A DNA stretch of 64,000 nt from Oligoflexales bacterium (GCA_965215515.1 OZ244057.1:64001-128000); one strand, 5' to 3'. Shown: positions 10,230 to 14,594, counted from the first letter of the stretch. The notes: generated by a model from the sequence alone, not told the origin. Translations and numbers: made by a program.

Positions 10230-11846
10230 TTAAGGAGAGTTGGGGTTGAAAGTCACTCGCACCTCGCAGTTGCACTGTCCAGCGCTCCAATAGCACCCAC
10301 TCAGATTAACATCTACAGAGGTATTATCAGGTTGCCTAAACCCACGATCATGTTGGCAGCCCCAACTTGGACTAGGCTCATTGTTTATGCACGAACTTTC
10401 TGCATCCACAGAATCATCCACATAGTGACCATAACAGTCAGTATCAGGCGTTGTGGAGTCACCATCATCATCGACACAGTTGCTACTGTGAGGATGAGTC
10501 TCGGCTTCACAAGGATACTTTTTCTTGCAGCATAAAAAGCAGTCCGCGGGCTCCCCCTGCGGCCCTGGCGGCGCTAAGTCTGGGTCTAGCACCAACCGCC
10601 CCCGCACCCTCACCAACCCTCGCCCTCGATCCCCCCGCGGGCCTGGTGGCCCTCGTTGTGTGCCATCCGAGCCTGGAGGCAGCAATCCTTCCCGCACGCC
10701 GCTTTTGAAATGCCCACCACCAGCCCTGAAGTCACTGATAGTTGGGAAGCGCTCTATCTCGCAGCTGAAGGTATCGTACTCCACGAGGTCGGGCTCATCG
10801 GGACTCCACCAGGTGGGAGGATCGGGCAGAGCAGTGGTAGCACCTGGATATGATCTGTCTATGTACCTCCCCCCAGGGCTGGCAAGGCGAAGCAGTGTGT
10901 AGGTTTGTGCAAGGGCAGTGCCACTACCCTGTTGCGCCGCGACGCGCCGCGCACGGCCAGTGGCGGGAGTCCCGTCTGTGCCCACGCAGCGCGTTTCTTC
11001 ATCTGCCACTATCTGCTCGACGTAGCCGCTTTGGGAGCAATCGATGGCTTTTACCGTGCGCTTCTCCGTAGGAGTAAGGTCGGTGCTGCAGATCGGATCG
11101 CCCGTGACGAAGGTATCAGTGGCGTCGAGGGAAAAACCAAGCAGAGCTCCCTTAGCGCAATCCTTCGCGGTCACCAGCGGTACTTGACTACACTTGGCGT
11201 AGTTGGAGTTGAAATCATATTGGATGATCGCCCCCGCGCCCTCGTAGAGCTTGACCCCTGCACTGTCAAGCTGAGTCAGATGAGGGTTACTGGGGAGCGT
11301 GGGGTTCGTGCAATCGGTGGTGTTGTCGCTGATCGCCCCTGGGGTGTTGTGATGCAAAAAAACGATCTCCTCACGTTCAGCCAACCTGATCTTGACGGTA
11401 GGATGCTGCGCAGGGATAAATTCCACCCTCACCTCGACCGCGATCAAACCCTCCTCCTCTACGTAACTGTCTGCCTGCAGGATCTCACCGCTAGGCAAAT
11501 TTCTTCTCAGGGCAGTCACCCTCCACCACCTCCCTGTTGGCGACCCAGTGTAACCGTAGTCGTAAAGATCATCGGCAAGAAGAAGGGCATTGCCGTTGGC
11601 GGTGGGGATAACGGCAAGACCAGCTCGCGAGCAAACGATGTGCGGACAAGTGCCGCTCCTTGTCGCATCCCAACCAGCAATGACGATGCTCTTGTAGTGT
11701 TTGAGCAACTCCTCGCGCTGTTCCCGCAACCGTACCGCCGCCATCGTCTGCGACTGACTGCCGAGCAGACGCGCTACCGCCACCGCCACAATACCCGCCA
11801 GTGCCACCGCGACCATCACCGACATCAATGTCATGCCATTGCGCAT
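10230..11846 (-). CDS. Large type IV pilin-like protein with Cys-paired repeats, a collagen-like segment and a Cys-rich C-terminal domain
   Basis: Start re-called at ATG 11846 (GGAGAGG RBS); MRNG|MTLMSVMVAVAL prepilin-like N-terminus; GPPGPRGDRGRG...GPQGEP. Confidence 0.75.
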   Translation of the reverse strand: MRNGMTLMSVMVAVALAGIVAVAVARLLGSQSQTMAAVRLREQREELLKHYKSIVIAGWDATRSGTCPHIVCSRAGLAVIPTANGNALLLADDLYDYGYTGSPTGRWWRVTALRRNLPSGEILQADSYVEEEGLIAVEVRVEFIPAQHPTVKIRLAEREEIVFLHHNTPGAISDNTTDCTNPTLPSNPHLTQLDSAGVKLYEGAGAIIQYDFNSNYAKCSQVPLVTAKDCAKGALLGFSLDATDTFVTGDPICSTDLTPTEKRTVKAIDCSQSGYVEQIVADEETRCVGTDGTPATGRARRVAAQQGSGTALAQTYTLLRLASPGGRYIDRSYPGATTALPDPPTWWSPDEPDLVEYDTFSCEIERFPTISDFRAGGGHFKSGVREGLLPPGSDGTQRGPPGPRGDRGRGLVRVRGRLVLDPDLAPPGPQGEPADCFLCCKKKYPCEAETHPHSSNCVDDDGDSTTPDTDCYGHYVDDSVDAESSCINNEPSPSWGCQHDRGFRQPDNTSVDVNLSGCYWSAGQCNCEVRVTFNPNSP

Positions 11847-11856
11847 ACCCTCTCCG

Positions 11857-13233
11857 TCATCGTAGCGGGCAAGAGCGGTTGTCATCCTCAAACCATTGCC
11901 AATGAGTATCTTCATTACCGAAATATCCACCATTACCACACCCTTCATCAGGGTAAGCAGGGATGGGAGGTGTTGCAAGAGGTCGGCCACTGAAAGATTC
12001 TCCCCTTGCCCCTCGCTCACCACAGGTGGGTCTGCCCTTCCGACCCCTCGGCCCTTGCCCACTGACGGTAAAGTCCGTGAGGGTACCCATAGAGCCAGGA
12101 ACATTTTTATATTCCTCATCACCAAAGTATGGAAAACCTGCCCTCGTGCCACACAACACTCTGCCCCTACTATCTATCCCTCGCACGGCGGCTGGTGCTC
12201 TAGTCGTCGGCCTTGGCACGCTTGGCGGCCACGGCCCTGGAGTCGTCGGCGTACAAGCATATATGGGCTGATTAAGAGCACAATTACTGTAATGAACCAG
12301 CTTGCCACTTCCCCCGAGTGCACACTCCACGTTAGCATTTTCGTTGCTAACGCCCGCCCCGATTTTCCAGATAACACTGCGATCTGAGACGCAACTGGTA
12401 GGAGTGACCGCTACCCTGCCGCTGTCGCTGCTGCAGGCGGTGGTAGATTCCACCACCCCTCCCTTCAGCGCATTTTTGCGCGGACAGTTGCCGAGACCAT
12501 TACGGGTGGTGTCGACAAGATCGGCGGAGCCGCAAGATACGTCGCGGTTAGATGAGTGCAAGGCGATCGCGGTCACCGCCTTGTCGCCACAACCATTGCC
12601 AGGCACATAGTTGGTGCTGCGTCGTAAGCGCAATTCGCGCGGATAGTTCAGCTGCGGCAGATGACGTTCGTTGCCCGCCCCGCGCCACCTGCTGGCAACA
12701 AAACTCTGCGTGAAAACGAGATCGACCGCGTTGTTTCCCCTGTGTTCCCATTCGACCTCAACTTTCCACCAACCATCGGTATCTTCTCTCGTCGCCGAAT
12801 CCTTCAGATGCATGCCGCCTGACTTGATAAGGACAATGTTCGACGCATCGAAGTTGCTAAAGTTTAGTGCACCCGCACGGGTAAGGGCATTACCACCAAA
12901 CTCACAATCAGGCCCCATCAACCGCATATTACGAGAACCGCTGGGACAACTGCTGCCCTTGCCGAAAATACAACGTCGCAAGGGGAGGTTGGCACTGGTC
13001 ACGGTAGGTCCGCCAGCATCGTAGAGAGTGCACCACCACACCTTGTCGTCATGCAGCAGATTGCTGTAGAACTTGAAAATCGCATCGCCCTTGTCGGCCA
13101 ACTCCATCACCCGCAAGGCACTCATCTGATTGCCCACCAGACGCACCCCCGCCACCGCCAGCACACCTGACAACCCTACCGCCACCATGAGGGAGGCCAG
13201 TGTCAGACCGAGTTTTCGCTCCCGAGCTCTCAT
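11857..13233 (-). CDS. Large type IV pilin-like protein with a collagen-like segment
   Basis: ATG 13233 overlaps the upstream stop; MRARERKLG|LTLASLMVAV prepilin-like N-terminus; GPRGRKGRP..GERGARGES. Confidence 0.75.
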   Translation of the reverse strand: MRARERKLGLTLASLMVAVGLSGVLAVAGVRLVGNQMSALRVMELADKGDAIFKFYSNLLHDDKVWWCTLYDAGGPTVTSANLPLRRCIFGKGSSCPSGSRNMRLMGPDCEFGGNALTRAGALNFSNFDASNIVLIKSGGMHLKDSATREDTDGWWKVEVEWEHRGNNAVDLVFTQSFVASRWRGAGNERHLPQLNYPRELRLRRSTNYVPGNGCGDKAVTAIALHSSNRDVSCGSADLVDTTRNGLGNCPRKNALKGGVVESTTACSSDSGRVAVTPTSCVSDRSVIWKIGAGVSNENANVECALGGSGKLVHYSNCALNQPIYACTPTTPGPWPPSVPRPTTRAPAAVRGIDSRGRVLCGTRAGFPYFGDEEYKNVPGSMGTLTDFTVSGQGPRGRKGRPTCGERGARGESFSGRPLATPPIPAYPDEGCGNGGYFGNEDTHWQWFEDDNRSCPLR

Positions 13234-14594
13234 GGTGGTGGATCGCATAGGTTACCAGACTTATCCCACCCAAGAGGACATCTGAGATTGTCGCACTTCT
13301 CATAGAACTTACTACCATCACAGAAAGACCGAGCCTGCGCTCCCTGCGGGCCAGGGTAGGTATCCCCCTGTTCTCCTCGAGGGCCTCGGAAGCCTCGAGG
13401 CCCTGCGCCTGTCGGTGTCGGCACACATGCTGTTACCAGACCGGTGCTCCCAAACCCTCTGATAGCCTCTCCTGGGTCGCAGTATTCTGGCTCCACCCCG
13501 CCTGTTCCCCCTCCCATCACCGCAGTCGAACACGTGAAAGTGCCCGTATCGCTAATTCTAACAATCCCGTAACGGTTCTCACCGCTACAGTGCCTGGCGG
13601 AAAATCCCGCCTCGACCTCGTTCACCAAAATATTGGGGTGGCTACACTGACTGATGCCTGTCCACGGATCGAAAAAGGCGATCGCGGTCGTGCCGCCCCC
13701 ACTCGTCGCGGGGCAACTTCCCTTGGTAGCGCCAGCTCCACATCTTAATCCCCGCCCCGCCGTGCCAGGAAACGACCTCCCCTTGATCCCAGCAAATGCT
13801 GCACCGCGCACTCTGCCGGTCTTGGTGAAAGGGTTATCGCTGTCACCGCTCAGGTCGTAACAGGGGGGGACGACCAGCGGGCCTTTGGAGGAGCACTCTA
13901 CCAAGCCTGTATAGGAGTCGAAGTTGACCACCGCGCTATCGCCCGCATAGGCGAGCACTCCCTTGCCCGTGCCACGATAATGACCCGTAAGCCTCCCCTC
14001 CGAACAGTCTTTGCCGACCGTGCGGTTCAAGTAGACGGCATGCTCCTTATCGGCCAGGTCAAAATTCACCCCGAGATCGTTCTTAATCTCGGTGCGGTTG
14101 GCGGTAAGAGTAAGTTTCACCTCCACATGTCTGTTGCTGGTGAGTCCCCTCCACTCGGCTTCGAGGCAAAAGTGTTGCGTGGTGTCGCACGTGCTCGTCG
14201 CACCATCGATAGGCAGGTTGTTGTAATCCTGCATCCGCAACCCGAGACCAGAACCTCCGATCAGCTCATCGGGATCGGGGGCTGGCGTTGGAAGGAAATC
14301 CTCCTGACAATCTTCTCCGTGCTTGTAAACCACCAGAGGGCCGCTGCGGGGCGATCCTGTGCGCAAGTAATTCCCTAGCGCACTATTTCCCCAAACAGTA
14401 CACTCCCACGTATTGCGGTTACTGATCACACTGGCGTAATAGGTTATCACCTGCTCGCGGAAAGATACCAGGTCACCGATCAAGGTGATGCTGGCACGGT
14501 TGCGCATCTGCTGGGTGTAGACCAACGCGAAGATGCCGAGCACAACCGCACCTGCCATCACCGTGACGATGCCGAAACCTCCCTCGTCTCTCAC
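13230..14594 (-). CDS. Large type IV pilin-like protein with a collagen-like segment and Cys-rich tip
   Basis: MRDEGG|FGIVTVMAGAVVLG N-terminus; GPRGFRGPRGEQGDT..GPQGAQ; many Cys pairs. Confidence 0.72.
   Translation of the reverse strand: MRDEGGFGIVTVMAGAVVLGIFALVYTQQMRNRASITLIGDLVSFREQVITYYASVISNRNTWECTVWGNSALGNYLRTGSPRSGPLVVYKHGEDCQEDFLPTPAPDPDELIGGSGLGLRMQDYNNLPIDGATSTCDTTQHFCLEAEWRGLTSNRHVEVKLTLTANRTEIKNDLGVNFDLADKEHAVYLNRTVGKDCSEGRLTGHYRGTGKGVLAYAGDSAVVNFDSYTGLVECSSKGPLVVPPCYDLSGDSDNPFTKTGRVRGAAFAGIKGRSFPGTAGRGLRCGAGATKGSCPATSGGGTTAIAFFDPWTGISQCSHPNILVNEVEAGFSARHCSGENRYGIVRISDTGTFTCSTAVMGGGTGGVEPEYCDPGEAIRGFGSTGLVTACVPTPTGAGPRGFRGPRGEQGDTYPGPQGAQARSFCDGSKFYEKCDNLRCPLGWDKSGNLCDPPP

What the first reader, a model, noticed from the sequence alone, without database searches (positions are those of the whole stretch)
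10230..14594. Three tandem collagen-bearing giant pilins: candidate heterotrimeric pilus-tip fibre system
Seen: three closely spaced genes on one strand (about 450-540 aa) share one architecture. Each has a prepilin-like N-terminus lacking Glu5 (S, S, T at +5), a pilin-like domain with shared motifs (QREELLKHYKSIV / KGDAIFKFYSNLL / FREQVITYYASVI), several Cys-bounded repeats (CDPGEAIRGFGSTGLVTAC, AVRGIDSRGRVLC, CAKGALLGF...GDPIC), then an interrupted Gly-X-Y block near the C-terminus (4+2, 3+3 and 5+2 triplets), then an unrelated tip. Established: collagen needs three chains, trimeric tip pilins exist (CofB/TcpB homotrimers), and E5-less pilins (GspK/PilX class) sit at pilus tips. Inference: three genes encode the three chains of a heterotrimeric phage-fibre-like adhesin mounted on a type IV pilus and closed by a short collagen helix, used for prey or host recognition. 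I do not know of a described pilin-collagen heterotrimer.
Basis: partly seen in the sequence, partly recalled or inferred. Interest (0 to 1): 0.82.

Follow-up and report, generated by a model that had tools for sequence, protein, structure and literature searches.

The report
Three pilin genes with collagen tails
Three neighbouring genes of an uncultured Oligoflexales bacterium each encode a pilus-subunit-like head, a cysteine-rich stalk and a short collagen-like tail; this conserved trio probably builds a three-chain tip on a pilus, which is not yet shown.

Summary
Three tightly packed minus-strand genes are distant paralogues: A 13230-14594, B 11857-13248, C 10230-11846. Each has a short leader ending in Gly, a hydrophobic helix without Glu5, a confidently modelled pilin-like module, a Cys-rich region, an interrupted Gly-X-Y block (5+2, 3+3, 4+2 triplets) and a Cys-bearing tail.

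The A-B-C order recurs in 4 of 4 complete loci of two congeneric MAGs. B-like then C-like genes recur in a sister genus. The Gly periodicity is invariant across about 30-40 homologues of each family, with Pro-rich X and Pro/Arg-rich Y positions. Distant C relatives reach Pfam Collagen.

The family is tiny: 61 hits in 1.84 billion representatives. The genome encodes a prepilin peptidase, pilus ATPases and secretins, but none lies next to any triad.

Best reading (about 0.4): an operon of three modular, Glu5-less minor pilins. It is analogous to GspI-J-K or Streptococcus sanguinis PilA-B-C. The C-termini would join in a short collagen-like, disulfide-stapled triple helix at a pilus tip.

Heterotrimer versus homotrimers, and the triple helix itself, remain inferred. 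The single complex prediction gave no verdict. A published InterPro census already lists two uncharacterised pilin-collagen architectures, so this is a new variant of modular pilins.

The parts
13230..14594 (-). Gene A (454 aa): first gene of the triad
   Evidence: ORF. 31 homologues at 40-53% identity. Start matches the homologues' MRxExGFGIV.
14019..14594 (-). A residues 1-192: leader MRDEGG, hydrophobic helix without Glu5 (+5 = Thr), pilin-like module
   Evidence: AF2 pLDDT is mostly 80-95 for residues 40-190, with helix 8-58 and a beta-sheet. Best VIA matches: XcpV Z 6.0, EpsI 5.8, GspI 5.8. The first 11 rows are all pilins or pseudopilins. Pfam N_methyl is not detected, 0 of 32 family members.
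13404..14018 (-). A residues 193-397: Cys-rich region with about four hairpin-like motifs (hydrophobic-x-hydrophobic...F/I-D/G-xxx-G-x-hydrophobic-x-C)
   Evidence: Invariant Cys and motif columns in alignment A2. AF2 confidence below 50, so the fold is unknown.
13335..13403 (-). A Gly-X-Y block, 5+2 triplets (GPRGFRGPRGEQGDT-YP-GPQGAQ)
   Evidence: Translation. G401/G404/G407/G410 are invariant in 32 sequences.
13233..13334 (-). A C-terminal tail, 34 aa with 4 Cys
   Evidence: C425 is conserved in at least 90% of the family.
11857..13248 (-). Gene B (463 aa, or 458 aa from Met6 whose ATG overlaps A's stop as ATGA)
   Evidence: 41 homologues.
12610..13248 (-). B residues 1-213: leader ending in Gly14, LTLAS (+5 = Ser), pilin-like module
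   Evidence: AF2 pLDDT is about 75-95 for residues 50-210, with helix 17-66 and a sheet. Best VIA match is XcpV Z 4.5; 9 of the top 15 rows are pilins. N_methyl is hit by 22 of 39 family members at E<=0.1, but not by the window's copy.
11995..12054 (-). B Gly-X-Y block, 3+3 triplets (GPRGRKGRP-TC-GERGARGES)
   Evidence: Q398, G399, G402, G405 and G413 are invariant in 39 sequences. The family consensus is QGPxGxxGxxGxGPxGPxG.
11860..11994 (-). B C-terminal tail, 45 aa with 2 Cys, ending CPLR
10230..11846 (-). Gene C (538 aa); ATG lies 10 nt after B's stop
   Evidence: 40 homologues besides itself.
11343..11846 (-). C residues 1-168: MRNG|MTLMS (+5 = Ser), pilin module homologous to that of A
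   Evidence: Pfam N_methyl 16.2-16.3 bits, below the 21.2 cut-off. 23 of 39 family members hit N_methyl at E<=0.1. Weak NCBIfam hits to PpdC/GspI/GspJ N-termini. hhalign A versus C: 98.1%, E 7e-14 over 200 columns.
10548..10652 (-). C Gly-X-Y block, 4 triplets + 17-aa insertion + 2 triplets
   Evidence: G402, G405 and C436 are invariant. 10 of 39 family members hit Pfam Collagen at E<=0.1.
10233..10547 (-). C C-terminal tail, 105 aa with 11 Cys, beginning DCFLCC
20185..20652 (+). Possible fourth component 'D': 155-aa stand-alone pilin module paralogous to C's head (MSRHG|TSLMG, no Glu5), with no stalk and no Gly-X-Y
   Evidence: Matches C-family profile positions 2-176 at E 4.5e-34. Counterparts exist in G001 and G002, far from their triads. 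ORF and translation. Association with the triad is inferred only.

Best explanation
A, B and C are three paralogous 'modular' minor pilins of a type 4 filament.

Each is made as a prepilin with a short basic leader ending in Gly. It would be cut by the genome's prepilin peptidase and inserted by its N-terminal helix into the filament. None has Glu5, and each carries about 250-370 residues beyond the pilin module. I therefore place them together at the distal tip, as GspI-J-K and S. sanguinis PilA-B-C are placed.

Beyond the pilin modules each chain continues as a disulfide-rich hairpin-repeat stalk. Each ends in 6-9 Gly-X-Y triplets followed by Cys. I propose that one A, one B and one C chain align these segments into a single short collagen-like triple helix, stapled by inter-chain disulfides. 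This would close a three-legged fibre that presents the variable C-terminal tails as an adhesive tip.

Shown here:
- the gene anatomy;
- the paralogy;
- the conserved triad;
- the conserved Gly periodicity and collagen-like composition;
- pilin-like models for A and B;
- pilus machinery present in the genome.

Inferred, with my odds:
- pilin processing and filament incorporation: about 0.7;
- the three act in one complex: about 0.7;
- a triple helix forms: about 0.55;
- it is a 1:1:1 heterotrimer: about 0.4;
- an adhesion role: plausible but untested.
For: Anatomy and operon:
- Genes overlap or lie 10 nt apart, on one strand.

Paralogy (hhalign):
- A-C: 98.1% probability, E 7e-14, 200 columns, covering the pilin module and first hairpin.
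- A-B: 94.9%, 75 columns.
- B-C: 99.1%, 58 columns.

Pilin character:
- Gly at -1 is conserved in at least 90% of each family.
- The AF2 pilin-like module is confident in A and B.
- VIA top matches are GspI-type pseudopilins and type IV pilins: A Z 6.0/5.8/5.8, with 14 of the top 15 rows pilins or pili; B Z 4.5, with 9 of the top 15.
- N_methyl is hit in 22 of 39 B members and 23 of 39 C members.
- The nearest ESM-Atlas clusters are Bdellovibrionota proteins with N_methyl in 24-43% of members. Scores are 0.78-0.83, so this is a lead only.
- The genome has one prepilin peptidase (80.7 bits), 8 T2SSE-ATPase matches and 3 secretins.

Triad conservation:
- A then B then C in 4 of 4 complete loci of two congeneric genomes, whose flanks differ.
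- A further triad lies on a 24.4-kb contig.
- B-like then C-like genes in 2 loci of a sister genus.
- At least 13 of 37 contig lengths of 10 kb or more carry members of all three families. This is a proxy and undercounts.

Collagen character:
- Invariant Gly at i, i+3, i+6, i+9 in each family.
- Present in 21/21, 36/36 and 35/35 full-length members.
- X position is 25-46% Pro; Y position is 14-28% Pro plus 12-22% Arg. Background Pro is 3-4%.
- Longer runs in distant relatives reach Pfam Collagen. P0151 scores 28.0 bits against a 27.2 cut-off; P0073, P0120, P0131 and P0145 have E 4e-6 to 2e-3.
- In the sister genus the B-like proteins have 8-9 uninterrupted triplets.
- Cys follows the block: C436 is invariant in C, and C425 is in at least 90% of A.

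Precedent:
- PilA of S. sanguinis is GspI-like, lacks Glu5 and has a degenerate signal that tools miss.
- It caps pili together with two modular pilins encoded in the same operon (PMC9934059, passages).
- Modular pilins are widespread (PMC8179133, passages).
Against: - The collagen-like runs are short and interrupted. Across 15 triads there are 4-9 triplets per chain, apart from one 13-triplet C count that includes extra short runs. The window's C has a 17-residue insertion. From memory, characterised bacterial collagens are much longer.
- None of the window's three proteins reaches Pfam Collagen.
- The A family never hits N_methyl (0 of 32). The window's B does not either, and C stays below the cut-off.
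- All three lack Glu5, which differs from GspI-J-K, where only K does.
- Fold matches are moderate (Z at most 6.0). The tool warns that Z under 8 can be a common arrangement. Foldseek found nothing at E<=0.001.
- No pilus machinery gene lies next to the triad in the window or in 4 relatives' loci.
- Triplet numbers do not covary between chains of a triad (Spearman 0.19-0.33, not significant, 15 triads). Spans and interruption lengths differ between chains.
- In the sister genus the C-like proteins have no Cys after the block.
- Nothing here separates a heterotrimer from three homotrimers except gene linkage.
Confidence: 0.4

Rival explanations
1. The three proteins are modular minor pilins that work together at a pilus tip, but the Gly-X-Y stretch is not a triple helix. 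It would be a short polyproline-II-like, flexible or extended linker between the stalk and the Cys-rich tail in each separate chain.
For: The blocks are very short and interrupted: 5+2, 3+3 and 4+17aa+2 in the window, and 4-9 triplets in almost all chains of 15 triads. Interruptions differ in length between the three chains. The window's proteins do not reach Pfam Collagen. The C-like proteins of the sister genus lack a Cys after the block.
Against: A mere linker would not need invariant Gly at strict three-residue spacing across 30-40 homologues at about 45-55% identity in each of three families. It would not need Pro at X and Pro/Arg at Y. Relatives extend the block to 8-15 triplets that reach Pfam Collagen.
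Confidence: 0.25
2. Each protein forms its own homotrimer through its collagen-like tail, as CofB/TcpB-type tip pilins trimerise. The operon would then encode three alternative tip adhesins, not one heterotrimer.
For: From memory, all characterised bacterial collagen-like proteins and the trimeric tip pilins CofB/TcpB are homotrimers. Interruptions trivially align within a homotrimer but differ between A, B and C. Relatives carry 2-3 diverged triads per genome, as expected for diversifying adhesins.
Against: In every complete locus seen, the gene number is exactly one A, one B and one C in the same order: the window, 4 of 4 complete loci in the relatives, and one triad whose A gene is split across the ends of a contig. 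No locus was seen with one family duplicated or missing. The genes appear translationally coupled, with an ATGA overlap and a 10-nt gap. The three heads are distinct paralogues, as in the hetero-oligomeric I-J-K and PilA-B-C tips.
Confidence: 0.15
3. They are not pilins. The N-terminus would be an uncleaved signal-anchor, and the proteins would be inner-membrane-tethered periplasmic or envelope proteins, perhaps linked to the gliding (Agl/Glt-like) genes that converge on them.
For: A never matches N_methyl (0 of 32). No Glu5 is present. There is no adjacent pilus machinery. In the window the triad converges on a GltG-like FHA/TonB_C gene, TPR genes and a MotA/ExbB gene.
Against: The gliding genes are absent from the flanks of 4 of 4 relatives' loci. 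Gly at -1 is conserved in all three families. A and B give pilin-like models whose best matches are pseudopilins and pilins. N_methyl is hit in over half of the B and C members. A small canonical N_methyl pilin lies directly after C in three loci of G001.
Confidence: 0.12

Closest known systems
PilA-PilB-PilC minor-pilin tip complex of Streptococcus sanguinis type 4 pili (PMC9934059, passages read; PMC8179133, passages read)
   Same: Three minor pilins are encoded in one operon. One is a GspI-like pilin lacking Glu5, with a degenerate signal that tools miss. The others are 'modular' pilins with large C-terminal modules. The complex is proposed to fit only at the pilus tip and to present adhesive modules. 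PilA (7o5y_B) and PilB (7b7p_A) are among the structural matches of A and B.
   Different: Here all three chains are modular and all three lack Glu5. The modules are not vWA or lectin domains but Cys-rich hairpin repeats ending in Gly-X-Y plus Cys. There is no detectable sequence relation. The organism is a diderm Oligoflexales.
GspI-GspJ-GspK / H-I-J-K minor (pseudo)pilin tip complexes of type 2 secretion systems and type IVa pili (3CI0, 5BW0, 2RET)
   Same: These are heteromeric caps made of distinct minor pilins from one operon. The GspI-type fold is the best structural match of A (Z 6.0, 5.8, 5.8) and B (Z 4.5, 4.3, 4.1).
   Different: Only K lacks Glu5 there, whereas all three do here. 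There is no GspK alpha-domain and no H subunit in the operon. There are 250-370 extra residues per chain. The triad is not encoded beside the machinery. A separate cluster of four small N_methyl ORFs lies beside an ATPase and a secretin at genome positions 1.706-1.712 Mb. It may be the canonical minor-pilin set.
CofB / TcpB trimeric tip pilins of type IVb pili (from memory, plus a mention in PMC8179133)
   Same: Large minor pilins with C-terminal beta-rich modules joined to the pilin module by a linker. They are thought to cap the pilus as a trimer.
   Different: Those are homotrimers of one gene product without collagen-like sequence. Here there are three different genes, and trimerisation would be by a Gly-X-Y helix.
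Bacterial collagen-like proteins (Scl1/Scl2, BclA, Legionella Lcl); Pfam PF01391
   Same: Gly-X-Y repeats without hydroxyproline, rich in Pro at X and charged residues. These are surface adhesins. Distant C-family members reach PF01391.
   Different: From memory, those have tens of triplets, a globular trimerisation domain, are homotrimers and are not pilins. Here there are 4-9 interrupted triplets at the far C-terminus of pilin-like proteins. The window's copies do not reach PF01391.
Heterotrimeric short collagens with aligned interruptions and disulfide staples (C1q A/B/C chains; FACIT collagen IX) - from memory
   Same: Three different chains come from clustered genes. The collagen region has a mid-helix interruption that differs between chains, and Cys residues tie the chains. 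The only PDB sequence hits of the C-family tail are collagen I/IX chimeras, and they are not significant (E 0.57-0.76).
   Different: Those are eukaryotic with much longer helices. There is no homology; the resemblance is of design only.
InterPro pilin architectures IPR012902-IPR001082-IPR008160 (x2 or x3) listed in Dataset S1 of PMC8179133
   Same: A pilin N-terminus followed by collagen triple-helix repeats exists in databases: two architectures, one protein each. The meaning of the IPR numbers is recalled.
   Different: Those are single uncharacterised entries with a canonical pilin domain and detectable collagen repeats. No triad, no Cys-rich stalk and no heterotrimer idea is attached to them. 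I saw only the architecture rows, not the proteins.

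Membership tests
Type IV pilin / type 4 filament subunit (class III signal peptide, Pfam PF07963 N_methyl) | Short, positively charged leader ending in Gly at -1, followed by about 20 hydrophobic residues | tested here: met
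   A is MRDEGG|F..., B is ...RERKLG|L..., C is MRNG|M.... The Gly is conserved in at least 90% of each family. Modelled N-terminal helices are 8-58 in A and 17-66 in B.
Type IV pilin / type 4 filament subunit (class III signal peptide, Pfam PF07963 N_methyl) | Glu at position +5 of the mature protein | tested here: not met
   Thr in A, Ser in B, Ser in C. The family consensus is T/A, S, S. Known tip pilins (GspK, S. sanguinis PilA) also lack it.
Type IV pilin / type 4 filament subunit (class III signal peptide, Pfam PF07963 N_methyl) | Match to the N_methyl profile at its gathering score (21.2 bits) | tested here: not met
   The window's A and B give no hit. C gives 16.2-16.3 bits, or 20.9-21.2 in the six-frame genome search. 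At family level with E<=0.1: A 0 of 32, B 22 of 39, C 23 of 39.
Type IV pilin / type 4 filament subunit (class III signal peptide, Pfam PF07963 N_methyl) | Pilin fold: long N-terminal helix packed on an antiparallel beta-sheet | tested here: inconclusive
   AF2 models are confident in this region. The best VIA matches are pseudopilins and pilins, but Z is 6.0 for A and 4.5 for B, below the level the tool calls clear. Foldseek found none. C was not modelled; it is homologous to A by hhalign.
Type IV pilin / type 4 filament subunit (class III signal peptide, Pfam PF07963 N_methyl) | Cleavage and N-methylation by prepilin peptidase; incorporation into a filament | not testable with these tools
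   A Peptidase_A24 gene is present in the genome (80.7 bits). ATPases and secretins are present too.
Collagen triple-helix repeat (Pfam PF01391) | Uninterrupted Gly-X-Y repeats long enough to match the profile (27.2 bits) | tested here: not met
   None of the window's three proteins hits PF01391. At family level with E<=0.1: A 1 of 32, B 1 of 39, C 10 of 39. One distant relative is above the cut-off (P0151, 28.0 bits).
Collagen triple-helix repeat (Pfam PF01391) | Collagen-like composition: imino acids and charged residues at X and Y | tested here: met
   X is 25-46% Pro. Y is 14-28% Pro and 12-22% Arg. Background Pro is 3-4%. Counts are 210, 190 and 275 triplets.
Collagen triple-helix repeat (Pfam PF01391) | Three chains wound into a triple helix | not testable with these tools
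   This needs CD, protease resistance or a structure. No model of the tails was made.
Minor-pilin tip complex (GspI-J-K / H-I-J-K / PilA-B-C type) | Several distinct minor pilins encoded in one operon | tested here: met
   Three paralogous genes with an ATGA overlap and a 10-nt gap. The order is conserved in 4 of 4 complete loci.
Minor-pilin tip complex (GspI-J-K / H-I-J-K / PilA-B-C type) | Sequence membership in the GspI/GspJ/GspK families (NCBIfam equivalogs) | tested here: not met
   There are only weak N-terminal hits for C: TIGR01707 gspI at 15.9 bits against 44.35, and TIGR01711 gspJ at 12.5 against 64.85. A and B give none.
Minor-pilin tip complex (GspI-J-K / H-I-J-K / PilA-B-C type) | Physical hetero-oligomer of the pilin modules at the filament tip | not testable with these tools
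   This needs co-purification, a structure or cryo-ET.
Modular pilins (pilin module plus grafted module; PMC8179133) | N-terminal pilin module followed by an additional C-terminal module or modules | tested here: met
   The confident pilin-like module ends near residue 192 in A and 213 in B. By homology it ends near 168 in C. It is followed by 260-370 further residues.

The most novel reading that the evidence does not exclude
This would be the first natural prokaryotic heterotrimeric collagen. Three different pilin-anchored chains would be brought into register by a three-pilin tip complex. They would form one short, interrupted, disulfide-knotted triple helix that closes a tripod-like fibre on a type 4 pilus. 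The collagen-like tip and variable tails would serve as a host- or prey-binding device, possibly collagen mimicry towards a eukaryotic host. These small genomes, and a plasmid-like contig that carries a triad, also encode ankyrin-repeat proteins.
Probability: 0.3. Interest if true: 0.85.

Novelty: new variant of a known kind. Interest (0 to 1): 0.62.

Why it matters
Modular minor pilins explain how one pilus machine gains many functions. A trio whose modules end in collagen-like segments would add a new way of building a pilus tip. Three separate subunits would be tied together distally instead of spreading like wings.

If the helix is truly A:B:C, it would be a natural, minimal and genetically tractable example of chain-selective collagen assembly in a bacterium. 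From memory, that problem is so far approached with designed peptides and with animal collagens.

It would also give a handle on the surface biology of uncultured Oligoflexales. Nothing on the pili of these bacteria turned up in my searches.

If the tails are only linkers, the finding is still a well-conserved new family of Glu5-less modular pilins. It is restricted to one bacterial family.

Tried and rejected
- Complex prediction. I sent the soluble pilin modules A 28-196, B 38-216 and C 29-172, with alignments. The verdict was 'no answer': scores 0.00, 0.56, 0.00 against a mark of 0.32, and the controls were not run. This counts neither for nor against binding.
- Foldseek of model A against the PDB: no match at E<=0.001.
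- Profile searches of PDB sequences. A2 gave none at E<=10. A4 gave only collagen I/IX chimeras at E 0.57-0.76. A3 gave only insignificant rows, including two pilin N-termini at E 0.37-0.79.
- Pfam and NCBIfam on the window's A and B: nothing.
- PHROGs: only a weak 'pilin' hit for C (E 0.0085), with no fibre families.
- tblastn gave no match for C against plasmids or for A against phages. I dropped the 'phage-fibre-like' wording.
- Two scans of JGI metagenome contigs, with the B and C alignments, found no relative.
- Sequencing runs: no RNA holder is listed. Four DNA holders come from one study.
- Earlier findings of this scan: nothing by place or by sequence.
- Link to the neighbouring gliding-type genes: rejected, because 0 of 4 relatives' loci have them.
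- Covariation of triplet number between chains of 15 triads: not significant. Tail lengths do correlate (rho 0.69 for A-C, 0.73 for B-C). However, the genes are linked and the triads are kin, so I give this no weight.
- Cys parity before and after the block: no clear pattern.
- Hit P0143 (904 aa, 11 repeats of a 'SQVPLV' stretch) looks like a translated DNA repeat. I ignored it.
- The promoter/terminator scan of 9900-15000 gave no more sites than shuffles.
- Literature. Searches for collagen-like + minor pilin + type IV pil, pilin + collagen triple helix + heterotrimer, modular pilin, bacterial collagen + heterotrimer + homotrimer and Oligoflexales + pili listed no paper describing a collagen-bearing pilin or a bacterial heterotrimeric collagen. 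I read only listings and abstracts, except for the two papers cited by passages.

Full report
**What is there**

Between 10230 and 14594 the minus strand carries three tightly packed ORFs.
- A: 13230-14594, 454 aa, GTG start.
- B: 11857-13248, 463 aa. Its sixth codon is an ATG that overlaps A's TGA as ATGA, which would give 458 aa and a 9-residue leader like the homologues'.
- C: 10230-11846, 538 aa. Its ATG lies 10 nt after B's stop.

Each protein begins with a short basic leader ending in Gly: MRDEGG|FGIVT, ...RERKLG|LTLAS, MRNG|MTLMS. About twenty hydrophobic residues and a long amphipathic helix follow. If cleavage follows the Gly, position +5 is Thr, Ser and Ser, not Glu.

Each protein ends with an interrupted Gly-X-Y block:
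- A: GPRGFRGPRGEQGDT-YP-GPQGAQ
- B: GPRGRKGRP-TC-GERGARGES
- C: GPPGPRGDRGRG-17 aa-GPQGEP

A Cys-containing tail of 34, 45 or 105 residues follows.

**Is it more than chance?**

Runs of at least four G-nonG-nonG triplets occur only 15 times in 4454 six-frame ORFs of at least 100 aa of this 2.18-Mb genome.

Conservation is the stronger argument. Each protein has 31-41 homologues at roughly 40-58% identity, almost all from metagenome assemblies. In the alignments the Gly positions of the first block are invariant:
- A: G401/404/407/410.
- B: Q398, G399, G402, G405, G413, with a conserved G-x-G break.
- C: G402/G405, with G399/G408 in at least 90%, and the following C436 invariant.

Among full-length members with a recognisable leader, 21 of 21 A, 36 of 36 B and 35 of 35 C proteins have at least three consecutive triplets in the C-terminal part.

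The composition is collagen-like. Pro fills 25-46% of X positions. Pro (14-28%) and Arg (12-22%) dominate Y. Background Pro is 3-4%.

More distant C-family members have 11-16 triplets and register against Pfam Collagen. P0151 scores 28.0 bits, above the 27.2 cut-off. P0073, P0120, P0131 and P0145 have E 4e-6 to 2e-3. The window's own proteins do not reach that profile.

**The three are paralogues with a pilin-like head**

BLAST sees only the N-terminal helix in common. Profile-profile comparison gives more:
- A with C over 200 columns, covering the head and the first hairpin motif (98.1%, E 7e-14).
- A with B over 75 columns (94.9%).
- B with C over 58 columns (99.1%).

AlphaFold2 with the family alignments gives confident models only for the heads.
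- A residues about 40-190: pLDDT mostly 80-95, helix 8-58 plus a sheet.
- B residues about 50-210.

Everything beyond stays below pLDDT 50, so the stalk fold is unknown.

An all-against-representatives structural search puts GspI-type minor pseudopilins first.
- For A: XcpV Z 6.0, EpsI 5.8, GspI 5.8. The first 11 rows, and 14 of the first 15, are pilins or pili.
- For B: Z 4.5, 4.3 and 4.1. Nine of the first 15 rows are pilins.

These Z values are modest and Foldseek found nothing. I call the fold 'pilin-like, not proven'.

At the sequence level, Pfam N_methyl is hit at E<=0.1 by 22 of 39 B and 23 of 39 C family members, but by 0 of 32 A members. The window's C scores 16.2-16.3 bits against a cut-off of 21.2. 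The ESM-Atlas neighbours of A are Bdellovibrionota clusters partly carrying N_methyl, at scores of 0.78-0.83. That is a lead only.

**Machinery and context**

The genome encodes one prepilin peptidase, eight T2SSE-family ATPase matches and three secretins. It has 26 N_methyl matches, about a dozen of them at the start of 600-1200-aa ORFs. None of this lies in the window beside the triad.

The plus-strand genes that converge on C are gliding-type genes:
- MotA/ExbB, 48-695;
- two TPR proteins;
- a GltG-like FHA/TonB_C protein, 8034-10007.

That neighbourhood is not conserved. The 33 flanking ORFs of four relatives' loci contain housekeeping genes, transposases and, in two loci, a small N_methyl pilin directly after C. 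They contain no gliding or pilus machinery.

**Conservation of the triad**

Among 41 genomes of the order, A is found only in the window's genus: G000, G001 and G002. A pattern scan of 185,579 species' genomes found the same two other assemblies, labelled Oligoflexales MAGs. Oligoflexales belongs to Bdellovibrionota.

In those two genomes, 4 of 4 complete loci have A, then B, then C in that order. All 12 proteins end in Gly-X-Y plus Cys. In one locus all three chains have 6-7 uninterrupted triplets.

A further triad sits on a 24,443-bp contig of G001. Its A gene is split across the two contig ends exactly in frame: 896 + 718 nt = 538 codons. The contig also carries ParA-like and AAA_25 genes, a 1683-aa ankyrin-repeat protein and two small N_methyl pilins. 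It is probably a circular plasmid-like replicon.

A search of 131 genomes of the phylum with the C profile added only two things:
- the sister genus G003, with two contigs, each carrying a B-like gene with 8-9 uninterrupted triplets and then a C-like gene with 5+3 triplets; the A position lies beyond the contig ends;
- two weak matches confined to the N-terminal helix.

An exhaustive HMMER pass over 1.84 billion representative proteins found 61 proteins at E<=1e-3 and 32 at E<=1e-30.

Matching the lengths of the longest contigs listed for the A, B and C hits gives a rough proxy. At least 13 of 37 contigs of 10 kb or more carry all three families. The proxy undercounts, because it misses loci I verified directly.

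**How it most likely works**

The closest worked-out precedents are the I-J-K tip of type 2 secretion pseudopili and the PilA-PilB-PilC tip of S. sanguinis pili. In the latter, a GspI-like, Glu5-less pilin with a degenerate signal peptide nucleates a cap that carries two 'modular' pilins. All three are encoded in one operon (PMC9934059, passages). Modular pilins are common and are thought to be tip-exposed (PMC8179133, passages).

By analogy I read A, B and C as three modular minor pilins that cap a type 4 filament. The strict one-A-one-B-one-C gene content, the coupled translation and the three distinct heads argue that they act together.

The invariant Gly periodicity, the Pro/Arg-rich X/Y positions and the following Cys argue that the tails form a collagen-type triple helix. 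Three chains held side by side at a tip are the natural substrate for one A:B:C helix.

A conserved hairpin motif lies 10-35 residues before the block in all three families. It could nucleate the helix, but that is speculation.

My odds:
- pilin-type processing and assembly: about 0.7;
- joint complex: about 0.7;
- triple helix: about 0.55;
- 1:1:1 heterotrimer: about 0.4.

The adhesive role, and whether the target is prey or host, are untested.

**What speaks against it**

- The helices would be very short and interrupted: 4-9 triplets per chain in almost all of 15 triads.
- Interruption lengths differ between chains, and triplet numbers do not covary.
- All three chains lack Glu5, unlike I-J-K.
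- A is invisible to N_methyl.
- No machinery is adjacent.
- Fold matches are moderate.
- The C-like proteins of the sister genus lack the Cys.

The single complex-prediction job, on the soluble heads, returned no verdict. It is recorded only under Tried and rejected. No RNA data were found.

**Novelty**

My literature searches found no description of a collagen-bearing pilin or of a bacterial heterotrimeric collagen. I read listings and abstracts only, apart from the two papers read in passages.

However, Dataset S1 of PMC8179133 lists two InterPro architectures, one protein each, with a pilin N-terminus followed by IPR008160 repeats. That this number is the collagen repeat is my recollection, and I did not see which proteins they are. 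A pilin-collagen fusion as such is therefore catalogued but uncharacterised.

What is new here:
- a conserved three-gene set of Glu5-less modular pilins, each ending in a short collagen-like block with Cys;
- the resulting heterotrimer hypothesis.

I rate it a new variant of a known kind (modular minor pilins and tip complexes), with interest 0.62. The bold reading is a natural bacterial heterotrimeric collagen templated by a pilus tip. I give it about 0.3, and it would deserve about 0.85.

Noticed in passing
window 20185-20652 (+): A 155-aa stand-alone pilin module (MSRHG|TSLMG, no Glu5) is paralogous to the head of C (E 4.5e-34 against the C-family profile). It lies directly after a response-regulator gene. 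Counterparts exist in G001 and G002, far from their triads. It could be a fourth, adaptor-like subunit.
   Followed up: partly
window 35382-37154 (+); genome-wide: A 590-aa ORF has a canonical type IV pilin N-terminus (KAG|LSLVE, with Glu5) followed by a long Cys-rich region. About a dozen further N_methyl matches open 600-1200-aa ORFs elsewhere in the genome. This small genome is unusually rich in giant modular pilins.
   Followed up: partly
window 48-10007 (+): A gliding-motility-type cluster converges on the triad: MotA/ExbB, a 1048-aa and a 328-aa TPR protein, and a GltG-like protein with FHA and AgmX/TonB_C domains. It is not conserved next to the triads of relatives.
   Followed up: partly
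G001 contig 5 (L025 and L030), 24,443 bp: A probable circular plasmid-like replicon. It carries ParA-like and AAA_25 genes, a DUF4411/Peptidase_M78 pair, a 1683-aa ankyrin-repeat protein, two small N_methyl pilins, and a complete triad whose A gene spans the contig ends in frame.
   Followed up: partly
L027:11152-11661 (-), L029:11181-11744 (-), L030:3343-3858 (-): In all three triad loci of G001 a small canonical N_methyl pilin (169-187 aa) lies convergently right after gene C. This was not seen in G002 or in the window.
   Followed up: no
window 37151-38263 (+): A 370-aa ORF with ankyrin repeats (E 4e-6). Together with the giant ankyrin protein in G001, it hints at dealings with a eukaryotic host.
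   Followed up: no
window 61333-63126 (-), and GC profile 60001-64000: A large serine recombinase (Resolvase plus Recombinase domains) sits where GC falls from about 0.57 to 0.50 and AT skew turns strongly negative. This may be the edge of an integrated element.
   Followed up: no
window 43973-45211 (+): A multi-haem c-type cytochrome (Multi-haem_cyto, MtrC/MtrF-like domain hits) lies among housekeeping genes.
   Followed up: no
genome G000:C1 about 1,705,900-1,712,100: Four small N_methyl ORFs (166-290 aa frames) lie beside a T2SSE ATPase and a secretin. This is probably the canonical minor-pilin set and machinery, separate from the triad.
   Followed up: no
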